IMG/VR virus record: IMGVR_UViG_643886092_000009
Origin: an uncultured virus (IMG/VR IMGVR_UViG_643886092_000009)
Lineage: Duplodnaviria; Heunggongvirae; Uroviricota; Caudoviricetes
Direction: 5' to 3' (one strand)
DNA: 64,000 nt
In this document: positions 22,511 through 59,137 of the stretch, piece after piece
How the letters are laid out: each line of letters starts with the position of its first letter
Numbering within the stretch: the stretch's first letter is position 1
Made by a program: the position numbers and the translations under genes
Notes under the pieces: generated by a model
Told to the model about the DNA's origin: nothing
What the model saw: only the letters and a program-made list of their open reading frames with translations
Database searches by the model: none

Positions 22511-22549
22511 TTTTCATTACTACCAAACAATAGAGGAAGGTATGAACAA

Positions 22550-23194: not shown

Positions 23195-23213
23195 ACTAAA
23201 GGAGAGAAACAAA

Positions 23214-23852: not shown

Positions 23853-23857
23853 TTAAT

Positions 23858-24553: not shown

Positions 24554-24653
24554 GTTGAAAAGGTTTTAAGAACTAGGTATACATAGGTAGACGTATACAT
24601 AGTAAGTAGGAGATTATTTCCAGTAGATTGTAAAACAAAGGAGGTAATAATGA

Positions 24654-25337
24654 ATGTCTAAGGAATCAAAACGTGCTATATACGATGTGTATAATAGAGC
24701 ATGGTTCAGTAACCCTACAATCAGGGCGTTAGGGTACAACGAAGACCGCTTCTGTACTGGATTGGCAACCACGCCAAAAGAACTTATTCCATTACTAAAC
24801 AATAAACAATGTACAGGGGTGGTATTTCTTACAAGTCCTGTAGACTTTGAAGAGTATCATAAGAACACAGGTAAAAAGATACAGATAGAGAAATTTATCA
24901 ACGGAGAGGAATTTCTTCACTATTCGTATCGTGATTACGCAAACGCCATGTTAGAGTGGGGTTTAGATATATCTGATAAAGAAGACTTATATAAGTTCGA
25001 TAAAAGATTAGAAGGAAATAGTTTATTCCTAGACTCTCTTATCAATTATGGTTTCAAGAGTAATATAGATGTAGAACCATTTGCTATGAAAGTAGAAGGT
25101 GGCGCACAATTTCCACTACGAACTGTATATTTGACAAGAGGTAACTTAACATTTTGTGTAACAAGTGAGCAAGTCGCTATCAAAGTTGGGGTAGACGATT
25201 TCATGATAGTACATGATGCAACAAGAGATATAGACTTCCAACTACTAGTAGATATTATGGCAAGAGGTTTAGGTCTTAGTCATGGTGAGTTACAGACAGA
25301 ACTTATTAAAGCAATTGAATTAAGCGATATTAGTTAA
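24654..25337 (+). CDS. family C paralog 8
   Basis: GLATTPKELIPLL, GVVF, MIVHDATRDID. Confidence 0.85.
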   Translation: MSKESKRAIYDVYNRAWFSNPTIRALGYNEDRFCTGLATTPKELIPLLNNKQCTGVVFLTSPVDFEEYHKNTGKKIQIEKFINGEEFLHYSYRDYANAMLEWGLDISDKEDLYKFDKRLEGNSLFLDSLINYGFKSNIDVEPFAMKVEGGAQFPLRTVYLTRGNLTFCVTSEQVAIKVGVDDFMIVHDATRDIDFQLLVDIMARGLGLSHGELQTELIKAIELSDIS

Positions 25338-25401: not shown

Positions 25402-25974
25402 ATGGACTTACAAAGACAGGTCGTTACAAGTCGAAAGAATGGGAAGGTAATCGCAACTGTTGAAGATTACTACGATAGATTCGTGCATGACATGGGGGCA
25501 AAATACAAGAAAACTAGCTTTACAAAAGATAAACTATGTATTTGCCCCTTCCATGATGATAATGATGCATCGTTAGGTTTATTCCGAGATAAACATGATA
25601 AAGAAGTTAAAATCTTTCACTGTTTCGGTTGTGGAGCAGGTGGAGACATCGTTCAATTCCATAGAAGACTTATTAACATTACAGAACATAGAAATATCTC
25701 ATTAGAGGTAGCAAGTAAAGAAGTAGCAAACTTATATGGAATTGAAATAAATGAAGAAGCTATCGAAGAACACTTAAAATCGTTACTGTTTGAACGAGAA
25801 TTGGAAGTAGAGAGAAACTTAGGTCAATATAACTTCCGTTCACATAGTAGTAACTTAATGAAACTAAGAATGGAACAAGAAAATATGTCATTAGGTGATT
25901 TTAGTGAAAACTTAGATGTAGTTATAAACATGTGGAAACTAGCAATCAGACAAGCGGAAAATAAAGATAATTAA
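25402..25974 (+). CDS. stand-alone primase-type CHC2 zinc-finger protein
   Basis: CPFHDDNDAS...FHCFGCGAGGDIVQF; no TOPRIM domain. Confidence 0.85.
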   Translation: MDLQRQVVTSRKNGKVIATVEDYYDRFVHDMGAKYKKTSFTKDKLCICPFHDDNDASLGLFRDKHDKEVKIFHCFGCGAGGDIVQFHRRLINITEHRNISLEVASKEVANLYGIEINEEAIEEHLKSLLFERELEVERNLGQYNFRSHSSNLMKLRMEQENMSLGDFSENLDVVINMWKLAIRQAENKDN

Positions 25975-27736: not shown

Positions 27737-28042
27737 GTGGTTTTGTTGCAGTTAGTTACAAAGAAAAAGTTACTAACAGTAGTAGACAATGATGGGTATT
27801 GGAAAGGCGTATTTGCACCATGCAAGATAAGGAAGACCTACGTAAATGATAATCACCCTTCTTGTACTGAGGTATTGATTCAAAAGATAAAATATACGAA
27901 TGGTGAGATAAAGACATTAGTAAAGACAGTTAGAAACCCATATGGGAAAGAGTTAGAGTTAGAAGAGTTTATTGAAAACTTCATTTTCCACAATTGCAAT
28001 GAAGAAGACGGAATAAACATTAAATATTGGCAGTTAGCATAG
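27737..28042 (+). CDS. family D paralog 1
   Basis: W.G..AP and HNCN.E.G..I.YW. Confidence 0.8.
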   Translation: MVLLQLVTKKKLLTVVDNDGYWKGVFAPCKIRKTYVNDNHPSCTEVLIQKIKYTNGEIKTLVKTVRNPYGKELELEEFIENFIFHNCNEEDGINIKYWQLA

Positions 28043-28053
28043 GAGGGGTAGAT

Positions 28054-28326
28054 ATGGGTTTAAAGAAAGTAACATTAGCACAAGTAAAAGCATCGGTTAA
28101 GAAGAACAAAAGTTGGAATGGATATGTAGCACCAAACAAGGTAGCAGAGTTTCATGTGAACCAAGGATGGCACTTAGGGGTACAAATTAACGTAATGACA
28201 AACGATAACGGGGATTTATTTGTAGGTGGACAGCATTTATTAACAAGATATCTAGAAAACTTCCAGTATCATAATTGTAACAACGAAGTAGGAACAGGGG
28301 TAGCTTATTGGGAGTTGACAAGCTAA
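28054..28326 (+). CDS. family D paralog 2
   Basis: WNGYVAP and HNCNNEVG.GVAYWE. Confidence 0.8.
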   Translation: MGLKKVTLAQVKASVKKNKSWNGYVAPNKVAEFHVNQGWHLGVQINVMTNDNGDLFVGGQHLLTRYLENFQYHNCNNEVGTGVAYWELTS

Positions 28327-28586
28327 TGAGGAAAGTAAATCAAACTCACATTAAGAAAACAATTAAACAAACTGGTAGTTGGACTGGATATATTGCACCT
28401 AGTAACGTACCACAAGAGAATGTAGTTACAGGATGGGGTATGGGAAGACTGACTACAATTACAGAATTAAGCAGTACATTAATGGTAGACAATAATGCAT
28501 ACTCCTTAGAATATTTATTAACTCATTTAAAAGCCAATAACGAAAGAAACGGATTAGGTAATGGCATTGCCTATTGGGAGGCATAA
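28326..28586 (+). CDS. family D paralog 3
   Basis: WTGYIAP and GNGIAYWE. Confidence 0.8.
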   Translation: MRKVNQTHIKKTIKQTGSWTGYIAPSNVPQENVVTGWGMGRLTTITELSSTLMVDNNAYSLEYLLTHLKANNERNGLGNGIAYWEA

Positions 28587-35180: not shown

Positions 35181-35567
35181 GTGAATCAATTAAACTTCGC
35201 ATTATTCGGGGTAGTAGTTATTTTATTAACAGGTACAAGTTACCTTTATTATGGTTACTTTAAAACAATGAAAACAGCAGAGAATAAAAATGAAACAGCT
35301 TATGCTTTTATATTTGGATTTATTATTTTCCTTATAACTACATTAGGACTTGTTATATCAGACCACATAACTGTACAACAAGAGAAAACATCTTTACTTT
35401 CAATTCTTATTGTTTTCTTAGCAAACGGTATGTTAGCTATTTGGGTAAGAGGTATGTACGATTTAACGAAGTCTAGTAAGTATAAAACATGGGTAATGTT
35501 AGTTAGACTGGTTTCTATTACTTGTATTATTATAGTTGGATTTAATGTGTATAAAGTAATAGGTTAA
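35181..35567 (+). CDS. 4-TM membrane protein
   Basis: YYGY...N..E...G pattern shared with the next two genes. Confidence 0.75.
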   Translation: MNQLNFALFGVVVILLTGTSYLYYGYFKTMKTAENKNETAYAFIFGFIIFLITTLGLVISDHITVQQEKTSLLSILIVFLANGMLAIWVRGMYDLTKSSKYKTWVMLVRLVSITCIIIVGFNVYKVIG

Positions 35568-35591
35568 GGACTAAAGAAAGGATGATGAACT

Positions 35592-35978
35592 ATGGTATTC
35601 ACATCAGTAAACGTACTTATCTTTTTAACAGTAGCTACAGTATTCGTTTATTTCTATTACGGTTACAAAGCAAGAAAACAGGGAAACAGTAGAGAAGAAA
35701 TGTTTGGTTTCTTTATAGGTATCCTAATTGCAATTATATCCTCTTTAGCTTTAATAGATATAGACAAAGTAGTCATTTCAAAAGACCGTCTACATGTAAT
35801 CATTGTATTAGCTTCTTTCTTAGCATTAACTGTATTAAATTTATTTATGCGTTACAAGTGGCATATTCAAGGGTTAAGAGAGTTTAGACTTCATTTGAAT
35901 GTAGGAAGAATTTTAATTCTTGTTTGTGTCGGTATTATGATATTCAAGACACACGTATCATGGGTACACCACGTATAA
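35592..35978 (+). CDS. 4-TM membrane protein
   Basis: YYGYKARKQGN...GL.EFRLHLN. Confidence 0.75.
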   Translation: MVFTSVNVLIFLTVATVFVYFYYGYKARKQGNSREEMFGFFIGILIAIISSLALIDIDKVVISKDRLHVIIVLASFLALTVLNLFMRYKWHIQGLREFRLHLNVGRILILVCVGIMIFKTHVSWVHHV

Positions 35979-35991
35979 AGAGAGGGAAACA

Positions 35992-36360
35992 ATGCAAACG
36001 GTTATATTTTATATTATAGTAGCTTTAGTCACTTTCATGAGTAGATGTTATTACGATTATGGTAAAACAGCAAAGAATGAGGGAAACAAAGTAGAGAAGA
36101 TACTAGGATATTCAATTAGTACTATATCAGCTATTGTTTTCTTTTTCCTTTTATATGATGGTGGACAGATAAATGAAGAAAAAGACTTACTAATCAATTA
36201 CCTAGTTATTGTTTTTGCATTAATAACAATGATAGTAGGAATAGATTTCAGAGAAAAAGTAAAACTAGAAGGTCTAATGCAGTATAAACTTAAATTACAT
36301 ATAAACAGATTTATGATAGTCGTCTGTTTTGGGTTTCTAGTAGCAAGAATTATCTTATAG
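35992..36360 (+). CDS. 4-TM membrane protein
   Basis: YDYGKTAKNEGN...GL.QYKLKLH. Confidence 0.75.
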   Translation: MQTVIFYIIVALVTFMSRCYYDYGKTAKNEGNKVEKILGYSISTISAIVFFFLLYDGGQINEEKDLLINYLVIVFALITMIVGIDFREKVKLEGLMQYKLKLHINRFMIVVCFGFLVARIIL

Positions 36361-39104: not shown

Positions 39105-39133
39105 TTGACAAATTGTTAAACTTATGGTATAAT
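39105..39133 (+). promoter_or_regulatory. sigmaA promoter
   Basis: TTGACA-N17-TATAAT with extended -10 TG. Confidence 0.85.
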
Positions 39134-39208: not shown

Positions 39209-39499
39209 ATGTTTGAAGAAGAAAAAGAAGAAGAAGAGTGTAGTTCTGACTGTGATTTTGAAGGAAGACTTACTTTTATAAACGGTTGTAAATTCCTATC
39301 AAACGTAAGTGATGGTGGAGAAAACAGATATATTAAAGTGTGCAATGATTTGGGAATCAAATATCATGTAGAAGCAATCGCATTCGATAGGTGGGGTAGA
39401 CCTATTTTGGGAAGGAAAATGGTAGGATTCTATATAGATAAAGACTTTAAAGACTTTCAGTTATTTTGGAACAAACTAAAAGAACGAAAAGGAGTGTAG
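39209..39499 (+). CDS. family F copy 1
   Basis: CKFLSN...C.DLGIK.H.E..AFD. Confidence 0.8.
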   Translation: MFEEEKEEEECSSDCDFEGRLTFINGCKFLSNVSDGGENRYIKVCNDLGIKYHVEAIAFDRWGRPILGRKMVGFYIDKDFKDFQLFWNKLKERKGV

Positions 39500-39787
39500 A
39501 TGGTGTTGAGTATACTAGGAGCTAGATTTAGAAGAGACTTACATGGTCGAAGAATGATAGAAGATTGTCATTTCTTAACTAACTTATCAAACGGGGATGA
39601 AAAATTATTCAAACAAGCTTGTGATGAGTTAGGTATTAAGTGTCATATCGAAGAAGTTGTATTCGATGGATTGAATCGTAGGATTGAAGGAACAGACATG
39701 GTAGCATTTTATATAGACAAGTCTTTAGCAAACCTAGACGCATTTTGGAAAAGAGTTAGAGAATTAGAAGAGTTGAAGATTTCATAG
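39500..39787 (+). CDS. family F copy 2
   Basis: CHFLTN...CDELGIKCHIE..VFD. Confidence 0.8.
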   Translation: MVLSILGARFRRDLHGRRMIEDCHFLTNLSNGDEKLFKQACDELGIKCHIEEVVFDGLNRRIEGTDMVAFYIDKSLANLDAFWKRVRELEELKIS

Positions 39788-39839: not shown

Positions 39840-40517
39840 GTGAGAAGGTTGGCTAGTTATACAGAAGACCAGTTAGTAAGAGCAATAGAACTATATAAAG
39901 ATAAAGCAAACAATGGGATGAGGTTACGAGATATATTAAAAGAGACAAACGTACCTTCAAGTGCTTTATATTCGACTATAAGAGAACAGGAAGTTGAGTT
40001 GCAAGGCAAAACAAAAGTTACAGAATACCCTAACTTAGAAAAAGCTTTAGAGTTATACGCAGATAGGGGTAGTAACGGTCTAACTGTTAATAGTATAGCA
40101 TCTAAATATGGTATTCCAACTTCAAGATTGTATTTAGAAATAGATATTAGAGGTATTAAACCAAGAATGAAGGGAAGAAAATATACAGAAAAAGATGTGC
40201 ATAGAGCAGTAGACTTGTATATAAATAGACCTACAAATGGTTTAAAGGTTAAGGATATATTAGCACAGACAAGCGTAACACAAACAGCTTTATATGGTGA
40301 GTTAAATAGACGTGGTATTGTTAGTATTGATAAGAATAAAGAACAAAAAGATTTAAATTCATTAATGAGACGAAAAGGTAACTTAGATAAAGCGGTAGAA
40401 CTATTCATTCACAAAGATACATATGGCTTAACTGTTACCAAGATTCTTAAAATAGCAAAAGTAAGTACAACAACGTTATATGGGGAATTAAGAAAACGAG
40501 GTTATAAAATAGACTAA
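39840..40517 (+). CDS. multi-HTH protein (4 modules)
   Basis: repeated A.ELY...GLTV..I...T.V....LY.EL..RG (resolvase/Hin HTH-like). Confidence 0.85.
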   Translation: MRRLASYTEDQLVRAIELYKDKANNGMRLRDILKETNVPSSALYSTIREQEVELQGKTKVTEYPNLEKALELYADRGSNGLTVNSIASKYGIPTSRLYLEIDIRGIKPRMKGRKYTEKDVHRAVDLYINRPTNGLKVKDILAQTSVTQTALYGELNRRGIVSIDKNKEQKDLNSLMRRKGNLDKAVELFIHKDTYGLTVTKILKIAKVSTTTLYGELRKRGYKID

Positions 40518-40525
40518 TAAAGGGA

Positions 40526-41383
40526 ATGGTGAGGAACATGGTTAAAGTATTAGAAACGGATAAACTTGTAGAAGTGGAGATTACTAGAGACCAACAAATC
40601 GCTAAAGCAATTGAGTTATATAAGAGTAAGATGAAAGTTAAGGATATTATAAAAGAAACTGGTATTCCTGAGTCTACGTTATACCGTATCTTTAGAGCAA
40701 ACAATTTAAGAAATCAACCTAGAGATAAAAAGATAGATGTAGAGAAGTTAGAGGAAGCATTAGACTTATTTATAAACAGGGATAAGTTAGGGTTAACTGT
40801 TAAGCAAATTGCAGAGAAAACAGGTATTTCCAAACAAACTATTTATGTAGAAGCAAAAGCAAGAGAGGTAAACTTTGAGTTTGTCGGCAAGGGGTATACA
40901 AAAGAATCTTTGGAGAAAGCGGTTGAAATGTATCAAAGACCGATACAAGAAAAGATTACACTAAAGAAAATTTACGAAGAGACAGGTGTTTCTAGAAGTG
41001 TATTATATAAAGAATTAGAATCACGGGGTATTGAAATCAGACATGGTAATCGTTTATCTTATACCGAAGAGTCTTTAGAAACTTCAGTTCATTTATATAA
41101 GAACCGTCATGAACTAGGGTTAGGAGTTTCAGACATTATTGATAGAACAGGTATTTGTATAAACGCCTTACATAAAGAGTTAAGAAAGAGAAAACTAATA
41201 AAGGGTAATACAAATAGAAAATACCCTATTAGACTAGTAAACCAAGCAATACGTTTAATCCTTAATAAAGAGAATAATTTTTCAGTTGCTCAAGTATCAG
41301 AGCAGACTGGTATTAAGGAAAGCACATTGTTTGCAGAATTAAGAGATAGGGGTATACGATTACGAGAACGGAAGGCGATGTAA
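40526..41383 (+). CDS. multi-HTH protein (5 modules)
   Basis: same repeat unit. Confidence 0.85.
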   Translation: MVRNMVKVLETDKLVEVEITRDQQIAKAIELYKSKMKVKDIIKETGIPESTLYRIFRANNLRNQPRDKKIDVEKLEEALDLFINRDKLGLTVKQIAEKTGISKQTIYVEAKAREVNFEFVGKGYTKESLEKAVEMYQRPIQEKITLKKIYEETGVSRSVLYKELESRGIEIRHGNRLSYTEESLETSVHLYKNRHELGLGVSDIIDRTGICINALHKELRKRKLIKGNTNRKYPIRLVNQAIRLILNKENNFSVAQVSEQTGIKESTLFAELRDRGIRLRERKAM

Positions 41384-41857
41384 GTGGCGTTAGAAGAACA
41401 AACTAATTTAGATAAAGCGATACGTTTATACGTAAATAGAAGTAGAACGGGATTAACAGTGAGACAAATATGTAAACAGACTGGAATACCTCTACACACG
41501 CTTTATAAAGGGTTAAGAGAACTAGGGTTAGCAATTAAACCGAATAAAAGGGTAGATAAAGAGAAGTTAAATCAAGCGGTTGAATTGTATTTAGAAAAAG
41601 AAGAACTAGGGTTGACTGTAGAAGACATTGTAAACAAAGTTGGAGTATCAGCAAGTGTTATTTATAATGAATTAAGAGACAGAGGATACAAATTAAAAAC
41701 ATGTGGTCGTAAATTTGAACAAGAAGATTTAGAAGAAGCGATTTCTTTATTCCTAAGAAAGAAAGAACTAAAGTTATCAGGAGAAGCAATTGCAGAAAGA
41801 ACTGGAGTACCAAGACAAACAATCTATTGGCATTTAAACAGAAGAGGTTTAAAGTAG
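41384..41857 (+). CDS. multi-HTH protein (3 modules)
   Basis: same repeat unit. Confidence 0.85.
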   Translation: MALEEQTNLDKAIRLYVNRSRTGLTVRQICKQTGIPLHTLYKGLRELGLAIKPNKRVDKEKLNQAVELYLEKEELGLTVEDIVNKVGVSASVIYNELRDRGYKLKTCGRKFEQEDLEEAISLFLRKKELKLSGEAIAERTGVPRQTIYWHLNRRGLK

Positions 41858-41866
41858 GAGGTTACA

Positions 41867-42514
41867 ATGAGTGAGCCAAACCTAGAATTACGAGAAGCAG
41901 TTTTTATGTATTTGTATCGAAAAGATTATAATTTAAAACTAGAAGATATCGTAGAGCAAACAGGGGTTGCAGAACAGGATATACTAGATGAATTAGTTAG
42001 ACTAGGTATACCTTTAGAAATAAACCAACTTCAAAAGTATGCAGCTAGTACGTTAGACGTAGCAATTCTCTTACATTTAGGTAAAGAAACGAATGGAATG
42101 TCAGTACAGGATATTGCAAACAAAACTGGCATCCATCGTTCAGCTTTATACAACGAATTAAAGAGAAGGGGTATTTTAGATTTAAAGAGTCTTACACCTG
42201 ACTATAAGTATGATATGGAAAAAGCAATAGAATTAATACTAAACCGTGAAGAAAACAGGTATAGATTAATAGATATTGAATTAGAAACAGGGGTATCGAA
42301 GTCTTCCTTATACCGTGAACTAGAAAACAGGGGTATTGAAGTAGTGAACGGGAATCGGAAAACTTCACAAGAAGCGATAGATGAAGCATTAGACTTATAT
42401 GAAAATAGAAAAGAAAATGGGTTAACAGTACGTAAAATCATTACCCAAACAGGGGTATCGAGAAGTACTTTATATGCAGAATTAAAGAAGAAACAGGGAG
42501 AGAAAAATGAGTAA
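41867..42514 (+). CDS. multi-HTH protein (4 modules)
   Basis: same repeat unit. Confidence 0.85.
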   Translation: MSEPNLELREAVFMYLYRKDYNLKLEDIVEQTGVAEQDILDELVRLGIPLEINQLQKYAASTLDVAILLHLGKETNGMSVQDIANKTGIHRSALYNELKRRGILDLKSLTPDYKYDMEKAIELILNREENRYRLIDIELETGVSKSSLYRELENRGIEVVNGNRKTSQEAIDEALDLYENRKENGLTVRKIITQTGVSRSTLYAELKKKQGEKNE

Positions 42515-43142
42515 GAAAGAGTCAAACAAGCTAAGAAAAGCAGTATCAATGTGGGTTTATAGAAAAGACTTAGAATTATCAAATGAGGAAATCAGTCAAG
42601 AAACAGGAGTAGCAGTAGACGAACTAGAACAAGAGTTAGTAAGGGTTGGATTAATTTCTATTAATAAGGAATTAAATCGTGCAGTAGATTTATATGTAAA
42701 CCGTTATAAGCTAGGTTTAACAATGGATGAAATTGTAGAGAAAGAGTGTATATCGAAAAGTACTTTGTACGCAGAATTAAAGAACAGAGGTATTGACTGT
42801 AGAAGTATAGGTAAAACTTATACACAAAAAGATGTACATGAAGCAGTATCATTATTCTTAACTCGTGAAGAAACAGGGTTACATGTAAAAGACGTTTTAG
42901 AGAAAACAGGCGTACCACATTCTGTATTATATAAAGAGTTACATAGATTAGATATAACTTTAAAGGAAAGTAATGATTCAGCGATTAATCTTGCGATTGA
43001 GTTATACGAAAACCGAAAGCAAACGGGTATAAAAGTAATAGATATCTTAGAAAGAACAAAAATATCTAGTCAAACTTTATATAGAGAGATAAAACTAAGA
43101 GGTGTTCCATATCGAGGTCGTAGTAAGAAAAAGGTAGCTTAA
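42507..43142 (+). CDS. multi-HTH protein (4 modules)
   Basis: same repeat unit. Confidence 0.85.
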   Translation: MSKKESNKLRKAVSMWVYRKDLELSNEEISQETGVAVDELEQELVRVGLISINKELNRAVDLYVNRYKLGLTMDEIVEKECISKSTLYAELKNRGIDCRSIGKTYTQKDVHEAVSLFLTREETGLHVKDVLEKTGVPHSVLYKELHRLDITLKESNDSAINLAIELYENRKQTGIKVIDILERTKISSQTLYREIKLRGVPYRGRSKKKVA

Positions 43143-43194: not shown

Positions 43195-44667
43195 ATGTCA
43201 AAAGGAATTGAGTTTGAAATTGGTAGTTTTCTAGGTGAGTTTGATGTAACAGACTATACAATGAGTCAAGTTGAGAAGTTAGAAGATTACATTGAACAAG
43301 CCAATACAATAGCAAACATGAAAACTGGTGAGTTACTAGTTGTAGACGCTATTTATAATGAAATGGTATCTATTTTACGTCAAGTAAAACCGGATTCACA
43401 TTTATTAACTGAGTTGTGGGAAACTGGTGATGAAGATAACGTTGAAGGTAATCAGTATACAGATTTATTAGTTAAAAACCCGATGAAATCTATCTTAACG
43501 GTTAAGTCTTTTAATAGTGCTGAAATGGGTATCTTTAAAAGCAATTATCCTGAGGATGAACCTGTTACATTACATGGTAGTTTAAAAGAGAACGGTTGGG
43601 GTATCCGTATTGCTTATATGGACGGTGAATATGTATCAGCAACTTCAAGGGCGAGAGCAAGTGCAGGTAAAGATTTAACAAGGCAAGTTGGAGTTGTATT
43701 AGAAAAGAAAGGTTTATTAACGTTAGAAGATGTACCAGACGGATTAGCTGAAGTACGAGGTGAGTTATTACTATCTTTTAACAACTTGGATGAAGCACGA
43801 GCATACAATCCAAACATCGTAAGTGCATTCAGTGGGGTAGCAAGTATGGCACGAGACAGTGCAAGTGAAGAGGAAAACGCTTTACTTGATTTCGTAGCCT
43901 ATACAATAATCCACGAAGACCTAGAATTTGAATCTAAGTCAGAAGAGTACAGGTACTTGAAGGAGTATCTAGGTTTCGAAGTTCCTTTAAACTGGACAAT
44001 CGAAGATGTAACAATAGATGAACTAGAAGAAGTACTAGAAGACACACTAGCTGAAATTGAGGAAGAGGTATTCAATGAAGCAGAACCGTATGAGTACTTT
44101 ACAGATGGGGTAGTTATTCAGATAGACGATTATGCTACATTCCATGCTTTAGGTGATGATGGAGGTAAATATAATAAAGGAAACATTGCATTAAAAGTAG
44201 GAGCATGGTCACAAGATAATTACTATGGATATGTACAGTATATAGACTTTTCAAAAGGGAAATCAAAACTAAGTCCAGTAGCAATTTTAGGTACTGAGCC
44301 AAACCAAGCAGTATTCGAAATAGACGATGAAATATATCAAGGTTTAGACGAAGTAATGGAGTATCACGATATCGAAACTCTAAACTTCAACTTAGCTGAC
44401 TGTGTTAAGAATTACAAAGACTTAGGAGTAGGTACAGCAAGTGGAAATAAAGTAAGACGGGTTCCATTATATGAAGTAGCAAACATGATTTTACTTGGTA
44501 TAACGCCAAACTCTATTTTATACTTCAAGTACGGTGGAGAAGCAGGGGTAGTGCCTTGTCGTGAAGACGGCTCTTTAATCAAGGATATTAAAGGTGTTAA
44601 TTATATAGACGGATTATTTACAGAGGAAGACATTATAGGTTCTGAAGAAGGAGAAGAATGGGCTTAA
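43195..44667 (+). CDS. ligA: NAD-dependent DNA ligase-like protein (adenylation plus OB region only)
   Basis: DAIYN, PMKSI, SLKENG, ATSR, EVRGE, TDGVVI, IALK; no Zn finger, HhH or BRCT. Confidence 0.75.
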   Translation: MSKGIEFEIGSFLGEFDVTDYTMSQVEKLEDYIEQANTIANMKTGELLVVDAIYNEMVSILRQVKPDSHLLTELWETGDEDNVEGNQYTDLLVKNPMKSILTVKSFNSAEMGIFKSNYPEDEPVTLHGSLKENGWGIRIAYMDGEYVSATSRARASAGKDLTRQVGVVLEKKGLLTLEDVPDGLAEVRGELLLSFNNLDEARAYNPNIVSAFSGVASMARDSASEEENALLDFVAYTIIHEDLEFESKSEEYRYLKEYLGFEVPLNWTIEDVTIDELEEVLEDTLAEIEEEVFNEAEPYEYFTDGVVIQIDDYATFHALGDDGGKYNKGNIALKVGAWSQDNYYGYVQYIDFSKGKSKLSPVAILGTEPNQAVFEIDDEIYQGLDEVMEYHDIETLNFNLADCVKNYKDLGVGTASGNKVRRVPLYEVANMILLGITPNSILYFKYGGEAGVVPCREDGSLIKDIKGVNYIDGLFTEEDIIGSEEGEEWA

Positions 44668-44754
44668 TCTGTAGAGGGTTATAATCAAACGAAAACAAAC
44701 CGAGCAGAAGTGTTCGGTTTTTCTTTGTTTTGTTCGATTATTTAGAAGACTATA

Positions 44755-44847: not shown

Positions 44848-45279
44848 ATGAAACAAACAAAGTTGTTCAAAACAATGTGTAAACCGAAACAAAATGGAGT
44901 AGCAGGTTACGATGATTTAGACGTTGATGTGCAAATAAATGAGTTTATCGCAAACAATGATATTGATGTAATCAGTATTGAGTTAGCAACTGGTATAGAT
45001 AGTGAAGGAAACCCATATGACCGTGCATTACTATCATATGATGATAAAGTCAAACAGCCATCAAAAGAGCAATTAAAACTAGCAAATCAAGATACTGAGT
45101 TAAAATGTATGTCTTTATCAGAACTAATTGAGTCTAGATTATTGGATATTCAAGAATTAAGTAGTATAGAAGGTTTAGACATACCTTTATTATGGGCAAA
45201 ACATGGTATTTGGATAGTACATAATCTTCAAAGCCAGTTAGAATTAACAAGACGAGTAGAGGAAAGAAAGAACAAATAA
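44848..45279 (+). CDS. family G copy 1 (N-terminus possibly Cse60/DUF2758-like)
   Basis: LDV..QINEF...GNP..ALLSYDDK...LW.KHG. Confidence 0.75.
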   Translation: MKQTKLFKTMCKPKQNGVAGYDDLDVDVQINEFIANNDIDVISIELATGIDSEGNPYDRALLSYDDKVKQPSKEQLKLANQDTELKCMSLSELIESRLLDIQELSSIEGLDIPLLWAKHGIWIVHNLQSQLELTRRVEERKNK

Positions 45280-45292
45280 GGAGGTTAAAACT

Positions 45293-45736
45293 TTGAAGAA
45301 AACAAAGAGTTTTACAGGCGCAATCAGGGGTATGAAGGCTGGTTTAGATGTAGAAATTAATAATTTCCTTACAACTCATGGTTATGAGTTACTAGATGTA
45401 CATTACACAATCTATCATGATGTAAACGGTAACCCAGTTCGAGACGCCTTAATTACATATGATGATAAAAAGGTTCAAGAAGAAGAAGTTACGAACAAAA
45501 ATCCAGACTTAGTACCTACTTTCATTACAAATGGTGGTATTCCAATCGTAAAGAGAATGCATGAAACAATGATAGAGGAAATCCAAACAATAGAAGGTCT
45601 AGAAAAGAACGGAGAAAAAGGTGTTCTTAGACTATGGGAGAAATATGGTCAAAACTTACTATTTTCTCATAATGAAATGGTTCTTATGTTAGAAAAACGA
45701 TTTAAACAGTTACAAGAACTAGAAAAAGAAGAGTAA
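45293..45736 (+). CDS. family G copy 2
   Basis: LDVEINNF...GNP..ALITYDDK...LWEKYG. Confidence 0.75.
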   Translation: MKKTKSFTGAIRGMKAGLDVEINNFLTTHGYELLDVHYTIYHDVNGNPVRDALITYDDKKVQEEEVTNKNPDLVPTFITNGGIPIVKRMHETMIEEIQTIEGLEKNGEKGVLRLWEKYGQNLLFSHNEMVLMLEKRFKQLQELEKEE

Positions 45737-46466: not shown

Positions 46467-47303
46467 ATGAAAACCAAAACAGTAAGTGGACTAGCTATTG
46501 TTTGTTCATTAGCTATGTTAACTACAGGTTGTGGAAAAGATTCACCAATTAAAGAACAAACAGCAAAAGCAGAAGTAAATGAAATTTTAACCGAAGAAGA
46601 CTATCTAGGGGTATCAGAGGAAATTGACTACATTAAACCTACTCCAAAAGAGAATAAAGAAGAGGTAGATTATATCAAACCGGCAACTACGCCAAATAGA
46701 GTCGCTCAAGGGTTAGAGAGACAGAATGCTAATGATATAGAAGTAGTCGTAAACAAGAAGAACAAGTTACCTGATAATTATAAACCAAAAGATTTAGTTG
46801 TACCAAACGTATCTTTTGCTTACGACGGGGTATATGAGAAGTCTCACTTACGTAAAGAAGCGTCAGACTCCTTAGAGAAACTATTTGCACTTGCAGAAAA
46901 AGATGGTATCTATTTAAATGCAGTATCAGGTTTCCGTTCGGCTGAGTATCAAACGAAAGTCTATAATGGAAATGTAAAGAAAGATGGAAAAGACCATGCT
47001 GATATGTTTTCAGCAAAACCTGGTCATAGTGAGCATCAAACTGGTTTAGTTATGGATGTATCAGCTAAATCATTTGATAACAAGTTAGAGCAAGAGTTTG
47101 AACAAACAAAAGAAGGTAAGTGGTTGGCGAAGAATGCTCATAAAACTGGATTTATCATTCGTTATCCAAAAGGTAAAGAAGATGTAACTGGTTATGAGTA
47201 TGAACCTTGGCATATCCGATATGTAGGAGATATTGCTACTAACCTGTTCGAAAAAGGTCTAACTTTAGAGGAATACAAAGAGCAGAAGGCTACTTACGAG
47301 TAA
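46467..47303 (+). CDS. lipoprotein D-alanyl-D-alanine carboxypeptidase (M15B, VanY/YodJ-like)
   Basis: lipobox LTTGC; SGFRS, SEHQTGL.MD, EPWHIRYVG. Confidence 0.9.
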   Translation: MKTKTVSGLAIVCSLAMLTTGCGKDSPIKEQTAKAEVNEILTEEDYLGVSEEIDYIKPTPKENKEEVDYIKPATTPNRVAQGLERQNANDIEVVVNKKNKLPDNYKPKDLVVPNVSFAYDGVYEKSHLRKEASDSLEKLFALAEKDGIYLNAVSGFRSAEYQTKVYNGNVKKDGKDHADMFSAKPGHSEHQTGLVMDVSAKSFDNKLEQEFEQTKEGKWLAKNAHKTGFIIRYPKGKEDVTGYEYEPWHIRYVGDIATNLFEKGLTLEEYKEQKATYE

Positions 47304-49255: not shown

Positions 49256-49696
49256 ATGACAATTACAAAATTTGAAATGTATTTTCATAAGGAAACTGAT
49301 GAGTGGATTATTAAAAACTCAAAAACAAGTGAAGAAGACTTTTTAAGTCATGTACTAGAAGAACGTTTCAATCGTGAGAGTATAGAAATCGAATTTACAG
49401 GTTTTATAAGCAAACAAGAAGAAGTAGTAAAAGAAACTTTAGAACCTAAGGTTGAAGAGTCAAAACCTTTTGTAAAAGTAACTGATTATGAAGCAGTACA
49501 ACATCTATTAGCAGGAGATATAATGTTAGGTATGAATTCGGACACGTATCTTAATTATCATAGAAACCACCCATATCCAGACGGTAAATTATCTTGGAGA
49601 GATATAAACGGTAAAGATATGACACCTGAGGGAGAGGTATTAGACTTAGAATTTGTACGTAAAAATGAGTGGTGGATGAAGGAGTGTAGGAAATGA
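49256..49696 (+). CDS. family H paralog
   Basis: VTDYEAV..L..G...WRD...DM.P...VRKNEW. Confidence 0.8.
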   Translation: MTITKFEMYFHKETDEWIIKNSKTSEEDFLSHVLEERFNRESIEIEFTGFISKQEEVVKETLEPKVEESKPFVKVTDYEAVQHLLAGDIMLGMNSDTYLNYHRNHPYPDGKLSWRDINGKDMTPEGEVLDLEFVRKNEWWMKECRK

Positions 49697-50085
49697 AACG
49701 AGTAAAGTTATATTTAGATGATATAACAGGTAATTGGATGGTACAAGACCACGAAACAGAGAAGACATATGATTTAGAAGAGTTGTTGTCTGTACCTTTA
49801 GGCGGTGATGTATTAATTACAAACAACAAGTTACCAGTATCAAGAGTGAAAGGTTTTAAAACAGTAACACATAATGAAGCAGTCGAACTTGTTATAAAAG
49901 GTCACAAGTTATATACACCAGCTTTAGACAGTTATGTGAAGATTCAAGAGTATCAATTAAAATCTGAACTTGTTTGGAGAGATTTATACGATAATGATAT
50001 GTCACCTATTTATTCTAAATTAAACTATGATTATGTTCGTAAAAACCAATGGTTGGTAAAGGAGGAAGACTATGAAACAGCCTAA
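49693..50085 (+). CDS. family H paralog
   Basis: VTHNEAV..V..G...WRD...DM.P...VRKNQW. Confidence 0.8.
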   Translation: MKRVKLYLDDITGNWMVQDHETEKTYDLEELLSVPLGGDVLITNNKLPVSRVKGFKTVTHNEAVELVIKGHKLYTPALDSYVKIQEYQLKSELVWRDLYDNDMSPIYSKLNYDYVRKNQWLVKEEDYETA

Positions 50086-54039: not shown

Positions 54040-55908
54040 ATGTCAGTTGAAGAGTTAAAAGACCAAGAGGTACATGGTGATGAAGAAGATTTTGAAGATG
54101 AAGACGAATTAATTGATGAAGAAGACGATGAAGAGTTCATCGAAGAGGAAGAAGACGAAGAACTAGAAGATGACGATGAAGAGGAATTTATTGAAGACGA
54201 GGACGAAGAGTTCGAGGAAGAGGATGATGAAGACCTAGAGGAAGATGAAGAGGATTTCGAGGAAGAGGACGAAGACCTTGACGAAGAAGATGATGAGGAA
54301 TTAGAAGAAGACGAAGATGATTTAGATGAAGACGAACTTGATGATTCAGAAGACGAAACTATCGAAGAAGAATCAGAAGAGGAAGGTCAAGAAATTGAGG
54401 ATGAACCTGTTATTGGTGAGGGTATATTTCAACCAGTAGAAGAACCGAGTGAGGTATTCCTACAAAACCCTTCTGTTGATTTAGGAAGTGGTATTGTATT
54501 AGATGCTAACTCTGGTGAAAACCTAGAAGACCGTCCTAGAGTTGTATTAGAAAAGAATATGGATACAGACGAGATTGAAGATTCTGAGTCTCGTGAAACA
54601 TTGAGTTTACTAAGTAGTACTTCTGAAACGTTATCTGATATGGGTATAGAAAAGGAAAATTACACGCTAACTTACGTAAATAATATTAAACTTACGAAAA
54701 TAGCGATTAGTGAGCCAATGAAGAAAGGTAGAGCATCAACAATTGTCGGTTTAACGAAGTCAATCGGTGAATTAGGGGTAGTAACGCCAATTCATTTAAT
54801 GAAACTAGAAACCGCAGATGAAGATGAAGATTCGGACATGCCAGCTTATCAAACTATTGATGGGTTAAGACGTATCTATAGTTCTGTTAAGAATAACTTA
54901 GAAACAATACCTGCAATTGTTTGGGACTTTAAAGATAAACAGAAAGGTAGACAAGCCGCACTTATCTTAGGTCTTACATTAAACCGTCAACAAAAGAGAA
55001 CATGGTCTGAGATTTGGGATTTATATACTATCTTAGAACGTCAAACTCAAATTAAACCAAACACATTTGAGTCACTCTTCCAATTAGAGGGCGGAGACGC
55101 TATGAAATTGAAAGATGTAGTACTAAGTGAGTATACAGAAGTCAAAGAAGAGTTATTTTCTAATGAAAAGACTCTAGAACAATGTTATAAAAACTTACAA
55201 AAGCTACGTAAGGAAGAAAATACACTAGAGATTGAAGACCAAACTGGTTTCGCTGATACAAGTGATATGGCAAAAGATGTAGTAGAAGGGGAAGAAAAAC
55301 CTGAGGTACAGTTGTCTAACGATGAAGTATTAGCTATCCTTGAAATGGGAGAAGCACTAGATAAAGAGATAAACCCTGATGACTTCGGTAGTATGGGAGA
55401 CATGTTTGGGGAAGTTACACATCAAGATGTGAAGAACCGTAAACCAGTTGACCCAATAATCAAACAACAGACTTTAGCTAGGGATGACTACCGTTGTAGA
55501 TGTTGCGGAACTGGTGGGAAAGCCTTCTTATCTACGATAATTTTCCATCACATCGTTCCTGTTCATGCAGGTGGACCGGATACTGTAGCTAACGGTTTAA
55601 CACTTTGCGACTCTTGTCACATCACACTTCATGTAATAGAGCGAAACGGTAGGCTTCCTCTTACAGAAGAAGAATTTAAAGAGTATGAACCAGAAGACCA
55701 ATGGAGAATCAAAAATATCCTTCATTATGCTCGAATTGCTATCATGGCAGGTAAGAATAAAGGTCTAACTGACGAACAAAGAAAAGAGTTAGCTAAGTCA
55801 GGTACAAGACATCGTATGCCAGGTGAAGGAAATAAAGAAAATCAACAAGGTTTTGCTTTATATGAACAAGACCGAGAAGATAAAAAGAAAGAAGAAACTA
55901 CAGCATAG
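54040..55908 (+). CDS. acidic tract + ParB/Srx-like + HNH endonuclease fusion
   Basis: about 115-aa D/E tract; SIGELGVVTPI...IDGLRR; CRCCG...HHIVP..AGG....NGLTLCDSCH..LH. Confidence 0.8.
   Translation: MSVEELKDQEVHGDEEDFEDEDELIDEEDDEEFIEEEEDEELEDDDEEEFIEDEDEEFEEEDDEDLEEDEEDFEEEDEDLDEEDDEELEEDEDDLDEDELDDSEDETIEEESEEEGQEIEDEPVIGEGIFQPVEEPSEVFLQNPSVDLGSGIVLDANSGENLEDRPRVVLEKNMDTDEIEDSESRETLSLLSSTSETLSDMGIEKENYTLTYVNNIKLTKIAISEPMKKGRASTIVGLTKSIGELGVVTPIHLMKLETADEDEDSDMPAYQTIDGLRRIYSSVKNNLETIPAIVWDFKDKQKGRQAALILGLTLNRQQKRTWSEIWDLYTILERQTQIKPNTFESLFQLEGGDAMKLKDVVLSEYTEVKEELFSNEKTLEQCYKNLQKLRKEENTLEIEDQTGFADTSDMAKDVVEGEEKPEVQLSNDEVLAILEMGEALDKEINPDDFGSMGDMFGEVTHQDVKNRKPVDPIIKQQTLARDDYRCRCCGTGGKAFLSTIIFHHIVPVHAGGPDTVANGLTLCDSCHITLHVIERNGRLPLTEEEFKEYEPEDQWRIKNILHYARIAIMAGKNKGLTDEQRKELAKSGTRHRMPGEGNKENQQGFALYEQDREDKKKEETTA
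54070..54405 (+). repeat. GAA/GAT/GAG/GAC low-complexity coding tract
   Basis: encodes poly-Asp/Glu with a periodic F/L/I. Confidence 0.9.
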
Positions 55909-57373: not shown

Positions 57374-57583
57374 ATGTGGAAGAAAAGCATAGACTATTGG
57401 TATCCAGTCCTAGCAGGTGGCGTTATGGGTGTGTTTGTAGGAGATATGTTATTCGAGTCTGAACTGATTGGTGCTACGTGGGGTATGGCAGTAGGTTTAG
57501 CGTTTATACCGAGTATCAAACCAAAAGGTAAGAAAAGGGAAGATGGGGAAGATGAGGAAGAGAAAGAAAAGAGGATTTTATGA
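57374..57583 (+). CDS. small 2-TM protein
   Basis: AGGAGG RBS. Confidence 0.65.
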   Translation: MWKKSIDYWYPVLAGGVMGVFVGDMLFESELIGATWGMAVGLAFIPSIKPKGKKREDGEDEEEKEKRIL

Positions 57584-57957
57584 CAGCAAGACTATATAAA
57601 GAAGTAGGAAGAACATTAAGAGTACAGAGAAAGCAACAAGGTCTATCATTAGACTCCGTATCAAAACAGGTAGGTATCAGTATAAACTACCTTTCTGAGT
57701 TAGAGAAGGGTGATAAAGGGAAAGTACCTTCTGATAATGTCCTTCAACGGTTAATAACTATATTAAACTTAAATGAGAAAGAGTTATACGTGGGTTTCGG
57801 AAAGATTCCATTATCGGTAGTAGAAGAGTTACAAAGTAATGAGAAACTATTAAGTATATTATATGGAGTAATTCACAATCCAAACGTATCAAGAGAAGAC
57901 TTCTATAATGACATGCAGAAACTATATTTTAAATACGCAAGTAGGTCACAGGGGTAG
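57580..57957 (+). CDS. XRE-family HTH regulator
   Basis: GLSLDSVSKQVGISINYLSELEKG. Confidence 0.88.
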   Translation: MTARLYKEVGRTLRVQRKQQGLSLDSVSKQVGISINYLSELEKGDKGKVPSDNVLQRLITILNLNEKELYVGFGKIPLSVVEELQSNEKLLSILYGVIHNPNVSREDFYNDMQKLYFKYASRSQG

Positions 57958-58020
57958 GTCGTTAGACTTACCTCTTTTCTTTATCCTGTACTTGACAAAT
58001 CAAGAAACTTATGTTATAAT
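57951..58020 (+). promoter_or_regulatory. terminator plus sigmaA promoter cassette
   Basis: GGGGTAGGTC / GACTTACCTC hairpin with T-tail, then TTGACA(57992)-N17-TATAAT. Confidence 0.85.
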
Positions 58021-58063
58021 AGTAGTATGGTAAATGAGAGAAAATACATAAGGAGTGTTGAAA

Positions 58064-59122: not shown

Positions 59123-59137
59123 GGAGGAAGAAACGAT

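What the first reader, a model, noticed from the sequence alone, without database searches (positions are those of the whole stretch)
39840..43142. Five tandem genes built entirely from 20 diverged HTH modules: a possible modular DNA-reading system
Seen: five adjacent, closely spaced or overlapping genes consist almost only of a ~45-55 aa unit, L..A(V/I).L(Y/F)..R...GL(T/S)V..I...TG(V/I)xxxxLY.EL..RG, repeated 4, 5, 3, 4 and 4 times. The scaffold is conserved while the presumed recognition-helix positions vary (SRSV, SKQT, PEST, HRSA, PRQT, PHSV, SSQT, CINA). No catalytic domain is attached. Knowledge: the unit resembles the single DNA-binding HTH of serine resolvases/invertases (Hin, HTH_7). 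Inference: chained modules could read long composite sites in the manner of zinc-finger or TALE arrays, acting as the element's regulators or DNA organisers, or as decoys. The first modules of the last two genes have acidic helices (AEQDILDE, AVDELEQE) and probably do not bind DNA.
Basis: partly seen in the sequence, partly recalled or inferred. Interest (0 to 1): 0.85.

Follow-up and report, generated by a model that had tools for sequence, protein, structure and literature searches.

The report
Five-gene cluster of helix-turn-helix arrays
Five neighbouring genes on the large Bacillus thuringiensis plasmid pXO16 encode proteins made only of 3 to 5 small DNA-binding heads in a row, a little-studied but not unique protein design whose DNA targets are still unknown.

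Summary
Window 39840-43142 carries five + strand genes (225, 285, 157, 215 and 211 aa) built from 4+5+3+4+4 = 20 copies of a ~40-aa three-helix HTH core, mostly joined by 14-aa linkers, with no other domain.

The window is 100% identical to pXO16, the 350-kb conjugative plasmid of B. thuringiensis sv. israelensis. These 20 modules are the only ones on the plasmid.

The genes lie between a perfect sigma-A consensus promoter (39105-39133) and a terminator (44697-44720), together with two small paralogues and an NAD-dependent DNA ligase. RNA-library contigs cover this unit.

Orthologues occur on four other B. cereus-group contigs. They keep the module counts, and each of the 20 modules stays a separate lineage.

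The closest solved relative is archaeal Cbp2, a tandem-HTH protein that binds CRISPR repeats. Single modules resemble serine-recombinase HTHs.

Best reading: multi-head DNA binders that lay their heads along one DNA, as shown for Cbp1. Targets and role are untested.

HTH arrays are widespread: 102 of the best 150 relatives have 3 or more modules. This scan has also noted such arrays on other DNA. It is therefore a new variant of a known kind, of moderate interest.

The parts
39105..39133 (+). Predicted sigma-A promoter of the operon (TTGACA, 17 nt, TATAAT, with TG before the -10)
   Evidence: It matches 12 of 12 consensus positions. It is one of 10 such sites in the window and of 67 on the + strand of pXO16, with 0 on the - strand. 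RNA-library contigs begin at 39174/39175 (X14, X6) and 39221 (X9).
39209..39499 (+). First gene of the unit, 96 aa, unknown function
   Evidence: ORF. It is a paralogue of the next gene. It has no Pfam or PHROG match.
39500..39787 (+). Second gene of the unit, 95 aa, paralogue of the first
   Evidence: The Atlas holds only a low-confidence model (pLDDT 0.55), and its structural neighbours are not informative.
39840..40517 (+). g1, 225 aa, 4 HTH modules (cores 39873-39992, 40035-40154, 40197-40316, 40383-40502)
   Evidence: pI 9.8. RefSeq calls it 'transcriptional regulator'. Orthologues are P0006 (57%) and P0009 (37%).
40526..41383 (+). g2, 285 aa (RefSeq starts 12 nt later, 281 aa), 5 HTH modules (cores 40598-40705, 40748-40867, 40910-41029, 41075-41194, 41237-41353)
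   Evidence: pI 9.7. Orthologues are P0001 (94%) and P0003 (57%), both with 5 modules.
41384..41857 (+). g3, 157 aa, 3 HTH modules (cores 41408-41527, 41567-41686, 41729-41848)
   Evidence: pI 9.5. It aligns to Cbp2 (2lvs) over two modules, E 4e-4. Orthologues P0161, P0162 and P0163 are all 157 aa. RefSeq's label 'TetR/AcrR family' does not fit, because there is no ligand-binding domain.
41867..42514 (+). g4, 215 aa, 4 HTH modules (cores 41888-42007, 42053-42172, 42215-42334, 42377-42496); the first module is acidic
   Evidence: The whole protein is acidic (pI 5.3, net -6). Orthologues are P0158 (87%) and P0159 (54%).
42507..43142 (+). g5, 211 aa, 4 HTH modules (cores 42531-42650, 42672-42791, 42834-42953, 42984-43103); the first module is acidic
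   Evidence: pI 9.0. The AlphaFold2 model has pLDDT 80.8 and pTM 0.43, with four separate HTH units. The orthologue is P0005 (64%).
43195..44667 (+). Last gene of the unit: diverged NAD-dependent DNA ligase, 490 aa
   Evidence: Pfam DNA_ligase_aden, 51.5 bits against a cut-off of 27. phrog_3869, E 3.6e-24.
44697..44720 (+). Intrinsic-terminator-like hairpin followed by a T run, closing the unit
   Evidence: The next perfect promoter starts at 44755. X9 RNA-library contigs stop at 44678 and resume at 44810.

Best explanation
The five genes encode free-standing arrays of 3 to 5 helix-turn-helix DNA-binding heads.

Shown:
- The fold and family of the heads.
- The absence of any other domain.
- The 40-aa core plus a linker that is mostly 14 aa.
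- Each of the 20 heads is kept as its own lineage in related B. cereus-group elements.

Predicted, and consistent with RNA-library contigs: the genes are co-transcribed with two small unknown genes and an NAD-dependent DNA ligase. Transcription would run from a consensus sigma-A promoter in the DNA-replication and DNA-metabolism part of the phage-like conjugative plasmid pXO16.

Inferred mechanism: as shown experimentally for archaeal Cbp1, the heads of one protein lie one after another along one DNA duplex. Helix 3 of each head sits in a major groove, and the partly basic linkers bridge between heads. A 3-5-head protein would then occupy roughly 25-50 bp. The five paralogues would recognise different composite sites. 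The acidic first heads of g4 and g5 would serve as protein contacts rather than DNA contacts.

Inferred role: element-specific DNA binders that regulate or organise pXO16 DNA, through transcription of its many strong promoters, or through replication or segregation.
For: HTH identity:
- HTH_23 and HTH_7 are above cut-off in 5 of 5 proteins.
- The module model has pLDDT 91.8 with the helix pattern H1, short helix, H2, turn, H3.
- Structural neighbours are all DNA-binding HTHs: TrpR-like Z 6.1, Sin recombinase DNA-binding domain Z 5.8 at rmsd 1.5 over 44 residues, then TetR, MuA, Myb and Cbp2.

Tandem similarity to Cbp2:
- phmmer of g3 gives E 4e-4, spanning two modules and the linker.
- The module profile gives E 1.7e-4.
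- Cbp2 is the best Foldseek row for the module, at 38% identity.
- Mechanistic precedent: PMC3597662 (abstract) and PMC10883916 (passages).

Constraint on each head:
- Orthologues keep 4, 5, 3, 4 and 4 modules.
- On the tree the 20 module groups need 21 changes against a minimum of 19. The shuffled mean is 49.6, and 0 of 200 shuffles are as low.
- Helix-3 variable positions are 0.50 identical in 34 diverged orthologue module pairs, against 0.18 in 190 paralogue pairs.
- Distinct helix-3 motifs are identical at 54-64% overall identity: CINA, PRQTIYWHL, HRSA, SKQT and SSQT.

Charge: four of the five proteins are basic, pI 9.0-9.8.

Operon and expression:
- Promoter and terminator.
- Identical contigs in 3 RNA libraries from 2 studies. 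In X9 the contigs break at both intergenic boundaries.

Context: type II topoisomerase, DnaB-like helicase, primase zinc ribbon, nuclease, ligase and dUTPase lie in the same window.
Against: No DNA target was found.
- The conserved promoter spacer looks like an ordinary extended -10 element.
- No repeated 25-50-bp motif was linked to the proteins.

Helix-3 positions are only slightly more conserved between orthologues than other surface positions.
- The values are 0.50 against 0.38, 0.44 and 0.45.
- Fisher p is 0.016 against helix 2, 0.22 against helix 1 and 0.04 pooled.
- The constraint is therefore not specific to the DNA-reading face.

g4 is acidic overall (pI 5.3), which is unusual for a DNA binder.

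The relative placement of the heads is not predicted: pTM is 0.43.

The similarity to Cbp2 is weak.
- Sequence E-values are about 1e-4.
- Foldseek E is 0.52 for the module and 0.075 for g5.
- No Foldseek match reaches E <= 0.001.

Contigs from RNA libraries cannot prove transcription, strand or transcript ends. One X6 contig runs through the terminator.

Tandem paralogy is general on this plasmid, with 9 tandem paralogue families in the window. Five copies need not mean five distinct functions.
Confidence: 0.5

Rival explanations
1. Low-specificity DNA coating. The arrays are abundant nucleoid-associated-type proteins that coat or compact the 350-kb plasmid, or protect newly transferred DNA, with little sequence preference. 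The many heads would give avidity rather than a long address.
For: They are expressed from a 12 of 12 consensus promoter. They are multivalent and mostly basic. Cbp1 itself builds chromatin-like structures together with Cren7. No specific target motif was found.
Against: Each of the 20 heads keeps its own helix-3 motif across elements that are 54-64% identical. Coating alone would not demand this. All pXO16 units seem to use the same kind of promoter, 67 on the plasmid, so a strong promoter says little.
Confidence: 0.2
2. Detached targeting arms. The arrays derive from, or work in trans with, homing-endonuclease-type or recombinase-type enzymes. They would guide a nuclease, recombinase or the co-transcribed ligase to particular DNA sites.
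For: The same module occurs fused to other domains: an endonuclease VII/HNH-type domain (P0028), a nuclease-like central domain flanked by 11 modules (P0030), and serine-recombinase-like N-terminal regions (P0031, P0032). My naming of the domains in P0030 to P0032 rests on reading their sequences, not on a family search. Of the best 150 relatives, 56 have 2 or more modules plus at least 100 aa of other sequence. The nearest plasmid matches are the HTHs of small recombinases and of an HNH endonuclease. A ligase shares the operon, and nucleases are in the window.
Against: None of the five proteins has a catalytic domain. No module was found in the window's own HNH/ParB-like protein or in its non-specific nuclease. 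Module counts and module order are stably kept in orthologues, unlike decaying remnants.
Confidence: 0.12
3. Not DNA binders. The arrays are protein-binding adaptors or decoys, for example against host defence or regulators, that only reuse the HTH fold.
For: Two heads have acidic helix 3 (net -3 each), and g4 is acidic overall. Surface positions outside helix 3 are almost as conserved between orthologues as helix 3. Cbp1's third HTH recruits a protein partner.
Against: Eighteen of the 20 heads keep the TG turn and the S/T-rich start of helix 3 with the LY..L..RG pattern. This is shared with the recombinase and TetR-type DNA-binding HTHs that score above cut-off. Four of the five proteins are basic.
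Confidence: 0.08
4. RNA-binding helical repeats of the PPR kind.
For: Designed PPR proteins top the PDB profile search, with summed E down to 2.4e-11. Pfam PPR_2 gives weak hits of 15.8 and 16.6 bits.
Against: Each PPR match covers only 16 profile positions (helix 1). It scores 3.6-4.1 bits with an independent E-value above 300, and the total comes only from 8-10 identical repeats. PPR_2 is far below its cut-off of 30. The unit here is about 54 aa with a helix-turn-helix, not a 35-aa hairpin.
Confidence: 0.02

Closest known systems
Cbp1 / Cbp2, archaeal CRISPR DNA repeat-binding proteins (PDB 2LVS; PMC3597662, PMC10883916)
   Same: Both are free-standing proteins made only of 2-3 imperfect tandem HTH repeats joined by short linkers. 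g3 aligns to Cbp2 across two heads plus the linker (E 4e-4). Cbp2 is the best Foldseek row for a single module (38% identity). The shown Cbp1 mechanism, heads aligned 5' to 3' along one repeat with one head recruiting a partner protein, is the model used here.
   Different: Cbp1 and Cbp2 are crenarchaeal, chromosomal, single genes that bind CRISPR repeats. Here there are five paralogous genes with 3-5 heads each, on a Bacillus conjugative plasmid. No CRISPR link was seen and the targets are unknown. The similarity is weak.
DNA-binding HTH of small serine recombinases (Hin/resolvase type, Pfam HTH_7 PF02796; Sin structure 2R0Q)
   Same: HTH_7 is above cut-off in all five proteins. Identity to the C-terminal HTHs of Bacillus plasmid recombinases is 44-48%. 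The Sin DNA-binding domain superposes at Z 5.8, rmsd 1.5 over 44 residues.
   Different: There is no recombinase catalytic domain. There are 3-5 heads per protein rather than one.
Uncharacterised multi-HTH 'DNA binding protein' families of phages (phrog_1303, phrog_3910, phrog_664) and a ~360-aa six-head family from metagenomes (P0013 and relatives)
   Same: They share the HTH-only array architecture. The five proteins match these PHROGs at E 1e-6 to 1e-13. One member of the six-head family's group, P0018, is the first gene of the arm that runs opposite to terminase, portal and major head genes on a 50-kb phage-like contig.
   Different: Those are single genes. Sequence identity is low, and none matched g2 in 50,697 phage records by tblastn. 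I found no experimental work on any of them.
Eukaryotic linked-HTH DNA-binding domains (Pax paired domain, Myb repeats, Tc3/mariner bipartite domain)
   Same: Two or three HTH units in one chain read adjacent DNA segments. Pax6, Pax8, Tc3 and Mos1 appear among the weak Foldseek rows. The Cbp2 abstract makes the same comparison.
   Different: There is no detectable sequence relationship, there are fewer units, and the setting is eukaryotic.

Membership tests
Resolvase/Hin-type and homeodomain-like HTH domains (Pfam HTH_7 PF02796, HTH_23 PF13384) | Profile score above the curated gathering cut-off | tested here: met
   HTH_7 scores 24.5, 63.1, 36.6, 44.1 and 28.6 bits (cut-off 23.8). HTH_23 scores 30.7, 66.3, 45.5, 40.6 and 33.2 bits (cut-off 24.6) for g1 to g5.
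Resolvase/Hin-type and homeodomain-like HTH domains (Pfam HTH_7 PF02796, HTH_23 PF13384) | Three-helix fold with a helix-turn-helix | tested here: met
   The module model has pLDDT 91.8 with helices at 3-14, 16-19, 23-30 and 34-43. The g5 model repeats this pattern four times. Neighbours are DNA-binding HTHs at Z 4.2-6.1.
Small serine recombinases (resolvase/invertase) | N-terminal serine-recombinase catalytic domain | tested here: not met
   No recombinase family appears among the Pfam hits. All sequence outside the modules is linkers of 7-24 aa.
TetR/AcrR transcriptional regulators (RefSeq's name for g3) | One N-terminal HTH followed by a C-terminal ligand-binding/dimerisation domain | tested here: not met
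   g3 is 157 aa with three HTH modules and no further domain. TetR_N matches only the HTH.
Cbp1/Cbp2 CRISPR repeat-binding proteins | Protein made of tandem imperfect HTH repeats joined by short linkers | tested here: met
   The alignment to 2lvs spans two repeats.
Cbp1/Cbp2 CRISPR repeat-binding proteins | Specific binding to CRISPR DNA repeats | not testable with these tools
   This needs binding assays. No dedicated CRISPR search was run. The tandem-repeat scan of pXO16 listed nothing I would read as a CRISPR array, but it was not designed for that.
Cbp1/Cbp2 CRISPR repeat-binding proteins | Significant sequence relationship to family members | tested here: inconclusive
   E-values are 4e-4 (g3) and 1.7e-4 (module profile) against 177,635 PDB sequences. 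Foldseek E-values are 0.075 and 0.52.
Homing endonucleases with HTH arms (HNH, GIY-YIG, endonuclease VII types) | A nuclease catalytic domain in the same protein | tested here: not met
   PHROG endonuclease families match only over the HTH part. Pfam finds no nuclease domain.
Pentatricopeptide repeat proteins | 35-aa helix-hairpin repeats scoring above the Pfam cut-off | tested here: not met
   PPR_2 scores 15.8 and 16.6 bits against a cut-off of 30. The PDB matches cover 16 positions at under 4.2 bits each.

The most novel reading that the evidence does not exclude
The cluster is a natural 'polydactyl' HTH system. In this reading, each of the 20 heads reads its own short DNA word through its conserved helix 3. 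The uniform 14-aa linkers set a fixed register, so the five proteins address five different 25-50-bp sites on pXO16 or on competing DNA. Heads could then be exchanged to change the address, giving a bacterial counterpart of zinc-finger arrays. The acidic first heads of g4 and g5 would pair the two proteins into one longer reader.
Probability: 0.12. Interest if true: 0.8.

Novelty: new variant of a known kind. Interest (0 to 1): 0.42.

Why it matters
pXO16 is an experimentally tractable conjugative plasmid. A review calls most of its coding sequence unexplained and notes its many paralogues and phage-like traits (PMC6199540, section 30).

These five genes are the only recognisable cluster of DNA-binding proteins in this 64-kb DNA-metabolism region, apart from one XRE-type gene. 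They are therefore the obvious candidates for how the element controls or organises its own DNA.

More generally, HTH-only arrays are common in sequence databases: 1,258 representatives match at E <= 0.001. Outside archaeal Cbp1/Cbp2 I found no experimental study.

This cluster offers five natural variants with 20 individually conserved heads and known orthologues. It would be a convenient system for asking whether such arrays read DNA head by head.

Tried and rejected
Searches for relatives:
- Megablast and tblastn against 50,697 phage records gave no match for the cluster, g2, P0013 or P0039.
- A scan of genome contigs with g2 gave 386 pattern matches but no relative.
- Scans of viral contigs with P0005 and P0013 gave no relative. 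The module alignment was too variable for that tool.

Data that were not held:
- No whole genome is held for the window. I rebuilt pXO16 from the plasmid record instead.
- The 2015 pXO16 sequence paper (Plasmid 80:8) is not held. Whether it mentions these genes is unknown to me.

Literature:
- In two reviews I read only search passages. Neither contains 'helix-turn-helix' (0 occurrences in each), and no passage shown concerns these genes.
- A phrase search for tandem or multiple HTH repeats gave 25 papers. None of the 21 listed was on bacterial or phage HTH-only arrays by title and abstract.

Structure searches:
- Foldseek with the whole g5 model gave no match at E <= 0.001. This is expected when the heads have no fixed mutual orientation.

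Candidate DNA targets:
- The conserved promoter block is explained by -35, TRTG/-16 and -10 elements.
- The 'GGGGTA' strings sit in ribosome-binding-site-like AGGAGGGGTAG contexts (families D13 and D14).
- A 21-bp repeat array at pXO16 220278-220599 was noted but could not be linked to the proteins.

Steps with no result:
- The raw-read RNA run X21 laid no reads, so it is no test.
- The Atlas look-up of the 95-aa upstream gene gave only a low-confidence model and uninformative neighbours.

Readings rejected:
- PPR-like, because of sub-threshold, helix-1-only matches.
- Transposase and terminase-small-subunit readings, because those matches cover the HTH only.


Full report
WHAT IS THERE

The window carries five + strand ORFs at 39840-40517 (g1, 225 aa, GTG start), 40526-41383 (g2, 285 aa), 41384-41857 (g3, 157 aa, GTG start), 41867-42514 (g4, 215 aa) and 42507-43142 (g5, 211 aa). 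They are separated by 8, 0 and 9 nt, and g4 and g5 overlap by 8 nt.

Twenty segments of about 50 aa align cleanly. The consensus is L..A(V/I).LY..R...GL.V.DI...TG(V/I)..S.LY.EL..RG, and mean pairwise identity is 34% (range 16-50%).

A test that avoids circularity used a profile built without the gene under test. It finds 4, 5, 3, 4 and 4 modules at 23.9-65.9 bits. The best domain in 200 shuffles of each protein scores at most 8.8 bits.

A six-frame scan of the window finds these 20 modules and then nothing better than 13.3 bits, in an XRE-type gene at 57580-57957. A scan of the whole 349,600-bp plasmid gives the same 20 plus that one weak hit.

The module core is 40 aa. Nine of the 15 inter-module linkers are 14 aa and the rest are 7-22 aa, so the usual period is 54 aa. 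Nothing else is in the proteins.

WHAT THE MODULE IS

HTH_23 and HTH_7 exceed their curated Pfam cut-offs in all five proteins, and TetR_N does so in four. No non-HTH family does.

AlphaFold2 on the 20-module alignment gives pLDDT 91.8 with the pattern helix, short helix, helix, turn, helix. On g5, with an alignment of eight four-module proteins, it gives pLDDT 80.8 and the same pattern four times. pTM is only 0.43, so there is no fixed arrangement of the heads.

Foldseek finds no match at E <= 0.001 for either model. The all-against-representatives aligner places one head on DNA-binding HTH domains:
- a TrpR-like protein, Z 6.1;
- the Sin serine recombinase DNA-binding domain, Z 5.8, rmsd 1.5 over 44 residues;
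- then TetR regulators, MuA, a Myb-like domain and Cbp2.

These Z values are modest, as expected for 45-residue domains.

On plasmids, tblastn with g4 finds 39 records. Ten are pXO16 copies. The other 29 match a single module; by their annotation, 20 of these matches lie in 'recombinase family protein'/integrase genes, 3 in HNH endonuclease genes and 6 in unannotated DNA. The two I opened show the match at the C-terminal end of a small recombinase and of a small HNH endonuclease gene.

WHERE IT IS

The 3.3-kb region is 100% identical to ten 350-kb B. thuringiensis plasmid records. One is pAM65-52-2-350K, which a review equates with pXO16, the aggregation-mediated conjugative plasmid of serovar israelensis (PMC6199540, Table 2 passage). 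The window equals plasmid positions 8299-72298.

The same review says that few pXO16 genes have database homologues. It adds that all genes share one orientation and that many are paralogues, which suggested a phage-like nature (section 30 passage). RefSeq labels the five genes 'transcriptional regulator', 'HTH domain-containing', 'TetR/AcrR family' and 'hypothetical'. I found no text on them in the two reviews searched. The 2015 sequence paper is not held.

TRANSCRIPTION UNIT

A 12 of 12 sigma-A consensus promoter with a TG motif lies at 39105-39133. A hairpin with a T run lies at 44697-44720, and the next such promoter starts at 44755. Between them lie two 95/96-aa paralogues of unknown function, g1 to g5 and a diverged NAD-dependent DNA ligase.

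Contigs 100% identical to this stretch occur in three RNA libraries from two studies:
- In X9 the contigs stop at 39087 and restart at 39221, then stop at 44678 and restart at 44810. Those are the two intergenic promoter/terminator gaps.
- X6 and X14 have contigs that begin at 39175 and 39174.

This fits the predicted unit. However, contigs cannot prove transcription or ends, and one X6 contig runs through the terminator.

The wider window encodes GyrB-like and GyrA/ParC-like subunits, a DnaB-like helicase, a primase zinc ribbon, a non-specific nuclease, a dUTPase and an HNH/ParB_N protein. It is a replication and DNA-metabolism region.

CONSERVATION

Relatives of the five proteins exist on four other B. 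cereus-group contigs:
- B. toyonensis, 359.5 kb: g2 94%, g3 86%, g4 87%.
- B. cereus, 126 kb: g2 57%, g3 60%, g4 54%, and a g1-like protein at 37%.
- B. cereus, 111 kb: g1 57%, g3 64%.
- B. toyonensis, 325 kb: g5 64%, next to another four-head protein.

All orthologues keep the module number. In a tree of 59 modules, orthologous modules group by gene and position. The 20 groups need 21 changes against a minimum of 19, with a shuffled mean of 49.6 and 0 of 200 shuffles as low. Deeper branches are unresolved except g4m1+g5m1 (100/96), g2m3+g4m3 and g1m3+g5m3. So the 20 heads were in place before these elements diverged, and each has been kept.

Identity by class of position:

| Class | 34 diverged orthologue pairs | 190 paralogue pairs |
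|---|---|---|
| Core | 0.72 | 0.55 |
| Helix-3 variable | 0.50 | 0.18 |
| Helix-2 variable | 0.38 | 0.18 |
| Helix-1 variable | 0.44 | 0.16 |
| Loop | 0.45 | 0.17 |

Helix 3 is thus the best-kept variable surface of the three helices, but only by a small margin: Fisher p is 0.016, 0.22 and 0.04 pooled. It is no more diverse among paralogues than the rest of the surface. Distinctive helix-3 strings are identical across orthologues: CINA, PRQTIYWHL, HRSA, SKQT and SSQT.

The first heads of g4 and g5 are acidic (net -6 and -3) and lack the LY pair. g4 as a whole has pI 5.3, while the others have pI 9.0-9.8.

HOW IT PROBABLY WORKS

The only solved structure with similarity across more than one head is Cbp2 (2lvs). 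g3 aligns to it at E 4e-4 over residues 20-104 and the module profile at E 1.7e-4. It is also the top Foldseek row for the module, at 38% identity.

Cbp2 has two HTH repeats tethered by a basic linker and binds CRISPR repeats (abstract). Cbp1 has three HTH domains that align 5' to 3' along the repeat, and its third domain recruits Cren7 (passages).

By analogy, I propose that each pXO16 protein lays its heads along one duplex, and that the five paralogues address different sites. This is inference. I found no target.

The conserved promoter spacer (tTTATGgTATAAT) is what an extended -10 / -16 element gives (the TRTG element is recalled knowledge). The GGGGTA strings sit in ribosome-binding-site-like contexts.

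HOW COMMON IS THE DESIGN

The module profile finds 1,258 representatives at E <= 0.001 among 1.84 billion, and 108 at E <= 1e-10. Among the best 150:
- 102 have 3 or more modules by my profile;
- 46 are HTH-only arrays;
- 56 carry at least 100 aa of other sequence.

These 150 include about a dozen from the pXO16-like cluster itself.

Examples:
- a ~360-aa six-head family;
- seven-head proteins with near-identical repeats;
- an endonuclease VII-type protein with three heads, from Sediminibacillus;
- a 796-aa Adlercreutzia protein with 11 heads around a central domain;
- recombinase-like proteins with 2-3 heads.

PHROG families 1303, 3910 and 664 cover such arrays. One array, P0018, is the first gene of the arm that runs opposite to terminase, portal and major head genes on a 50-kb contig. 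Earlier notes of this scan describe HTH arrays on other DNA and also point to Cbp1/Cbp2 and to homing-endonuclease arms. I had reached Cbp2 independently.

Tandem paralogy itself is ordinary on this plasmid, with nine tandem paralogue families in the window.

VERDICT

The proteins are HTH arrays of a widespread but experimentally almost untouched kind. What is particular here is five co-transcribed paralogues with 20 individually conserved heads, on a tractable plasmid, next to a DNA ligase. Their targets and role remain open.

Noticed in passing
window 5600, 7519, 13319, 32968, 39105, 44755, 47925, 57992, 60206, 63178 (whole plasmid: L002-L019): Perfect TTGACA-17-TATAAT promoters with a TG motif occur 10 times in the window. 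On pXO16 there are 67, all on the + strand, and none on the - strand. They share an extended consensus aC.ta.TTGACAAAT...gaAaTTTATGGTATAATAg...TAta.
   Followed up: partly
window 6802-9234, 19713-25337, 27737-28586, 35181-36360, 39209-39787, 44848-45736, 49256-50085, 58055-63013: Besides the HTH cluster, eight further tandem paralogue families of 2-8 members have no Pfam match. One is a run of eight ~190-230-aa genes at 19713-25337.
   Followed up: partly
window 11040-18041 and 25402-25974: There is a phage-like replication set: a GyrB-like protein (726 aa), a GyrA/ParC-like protein (745 aa), a DnaB-like helicase and a protein with a primase CHC2 zinc ribbon.
   Followed up: no
window 54040-55908: A 622-aa protein combines HNH and weak ParB_N matches. 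It begins with a long Asp/Glu-rich repeat region, seen as DNA repeats at 54059-54377. Similar acidic repeat tracts occur elsewhere on pXO16.
   Followed up: no
pXO16 220278-220599 (L013, outside the window): About 15 head-to-tail copies of a 21-bp unit (consensus near AATCTGAAAGTTATAGTAACG) look like an iteron or centromere array. It is a possible target for a DNA-binding protein of the plasmid.
   Followed up: no
window 57950-57985, 61819-61855, 63136-63170: Conserved hairpins (AGGGGTAGGTC...GACTTACCTCT followed by a T run) lie directly upstream of promoters. They are probably terminators of the preceding units (family D6).
   Followed up: no
window 46467-47303: A VanY/M15-type D-Ala-D-Ala carboxypeptidase (164 bits) lies in the next unit. 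PLSDB flags it as a predicted 'vanY' resistance gene at 35% identity, which looks like an over-call for a cell-wall hydrolase.
   Followed up: no
window 41384-41857: RefSeq names g3 'TetR/AcrR family transcriptional regulator', although it has three HTH heads and no ligand-binding domain. The name comes from the HTH match alone.
   Followed up: yes
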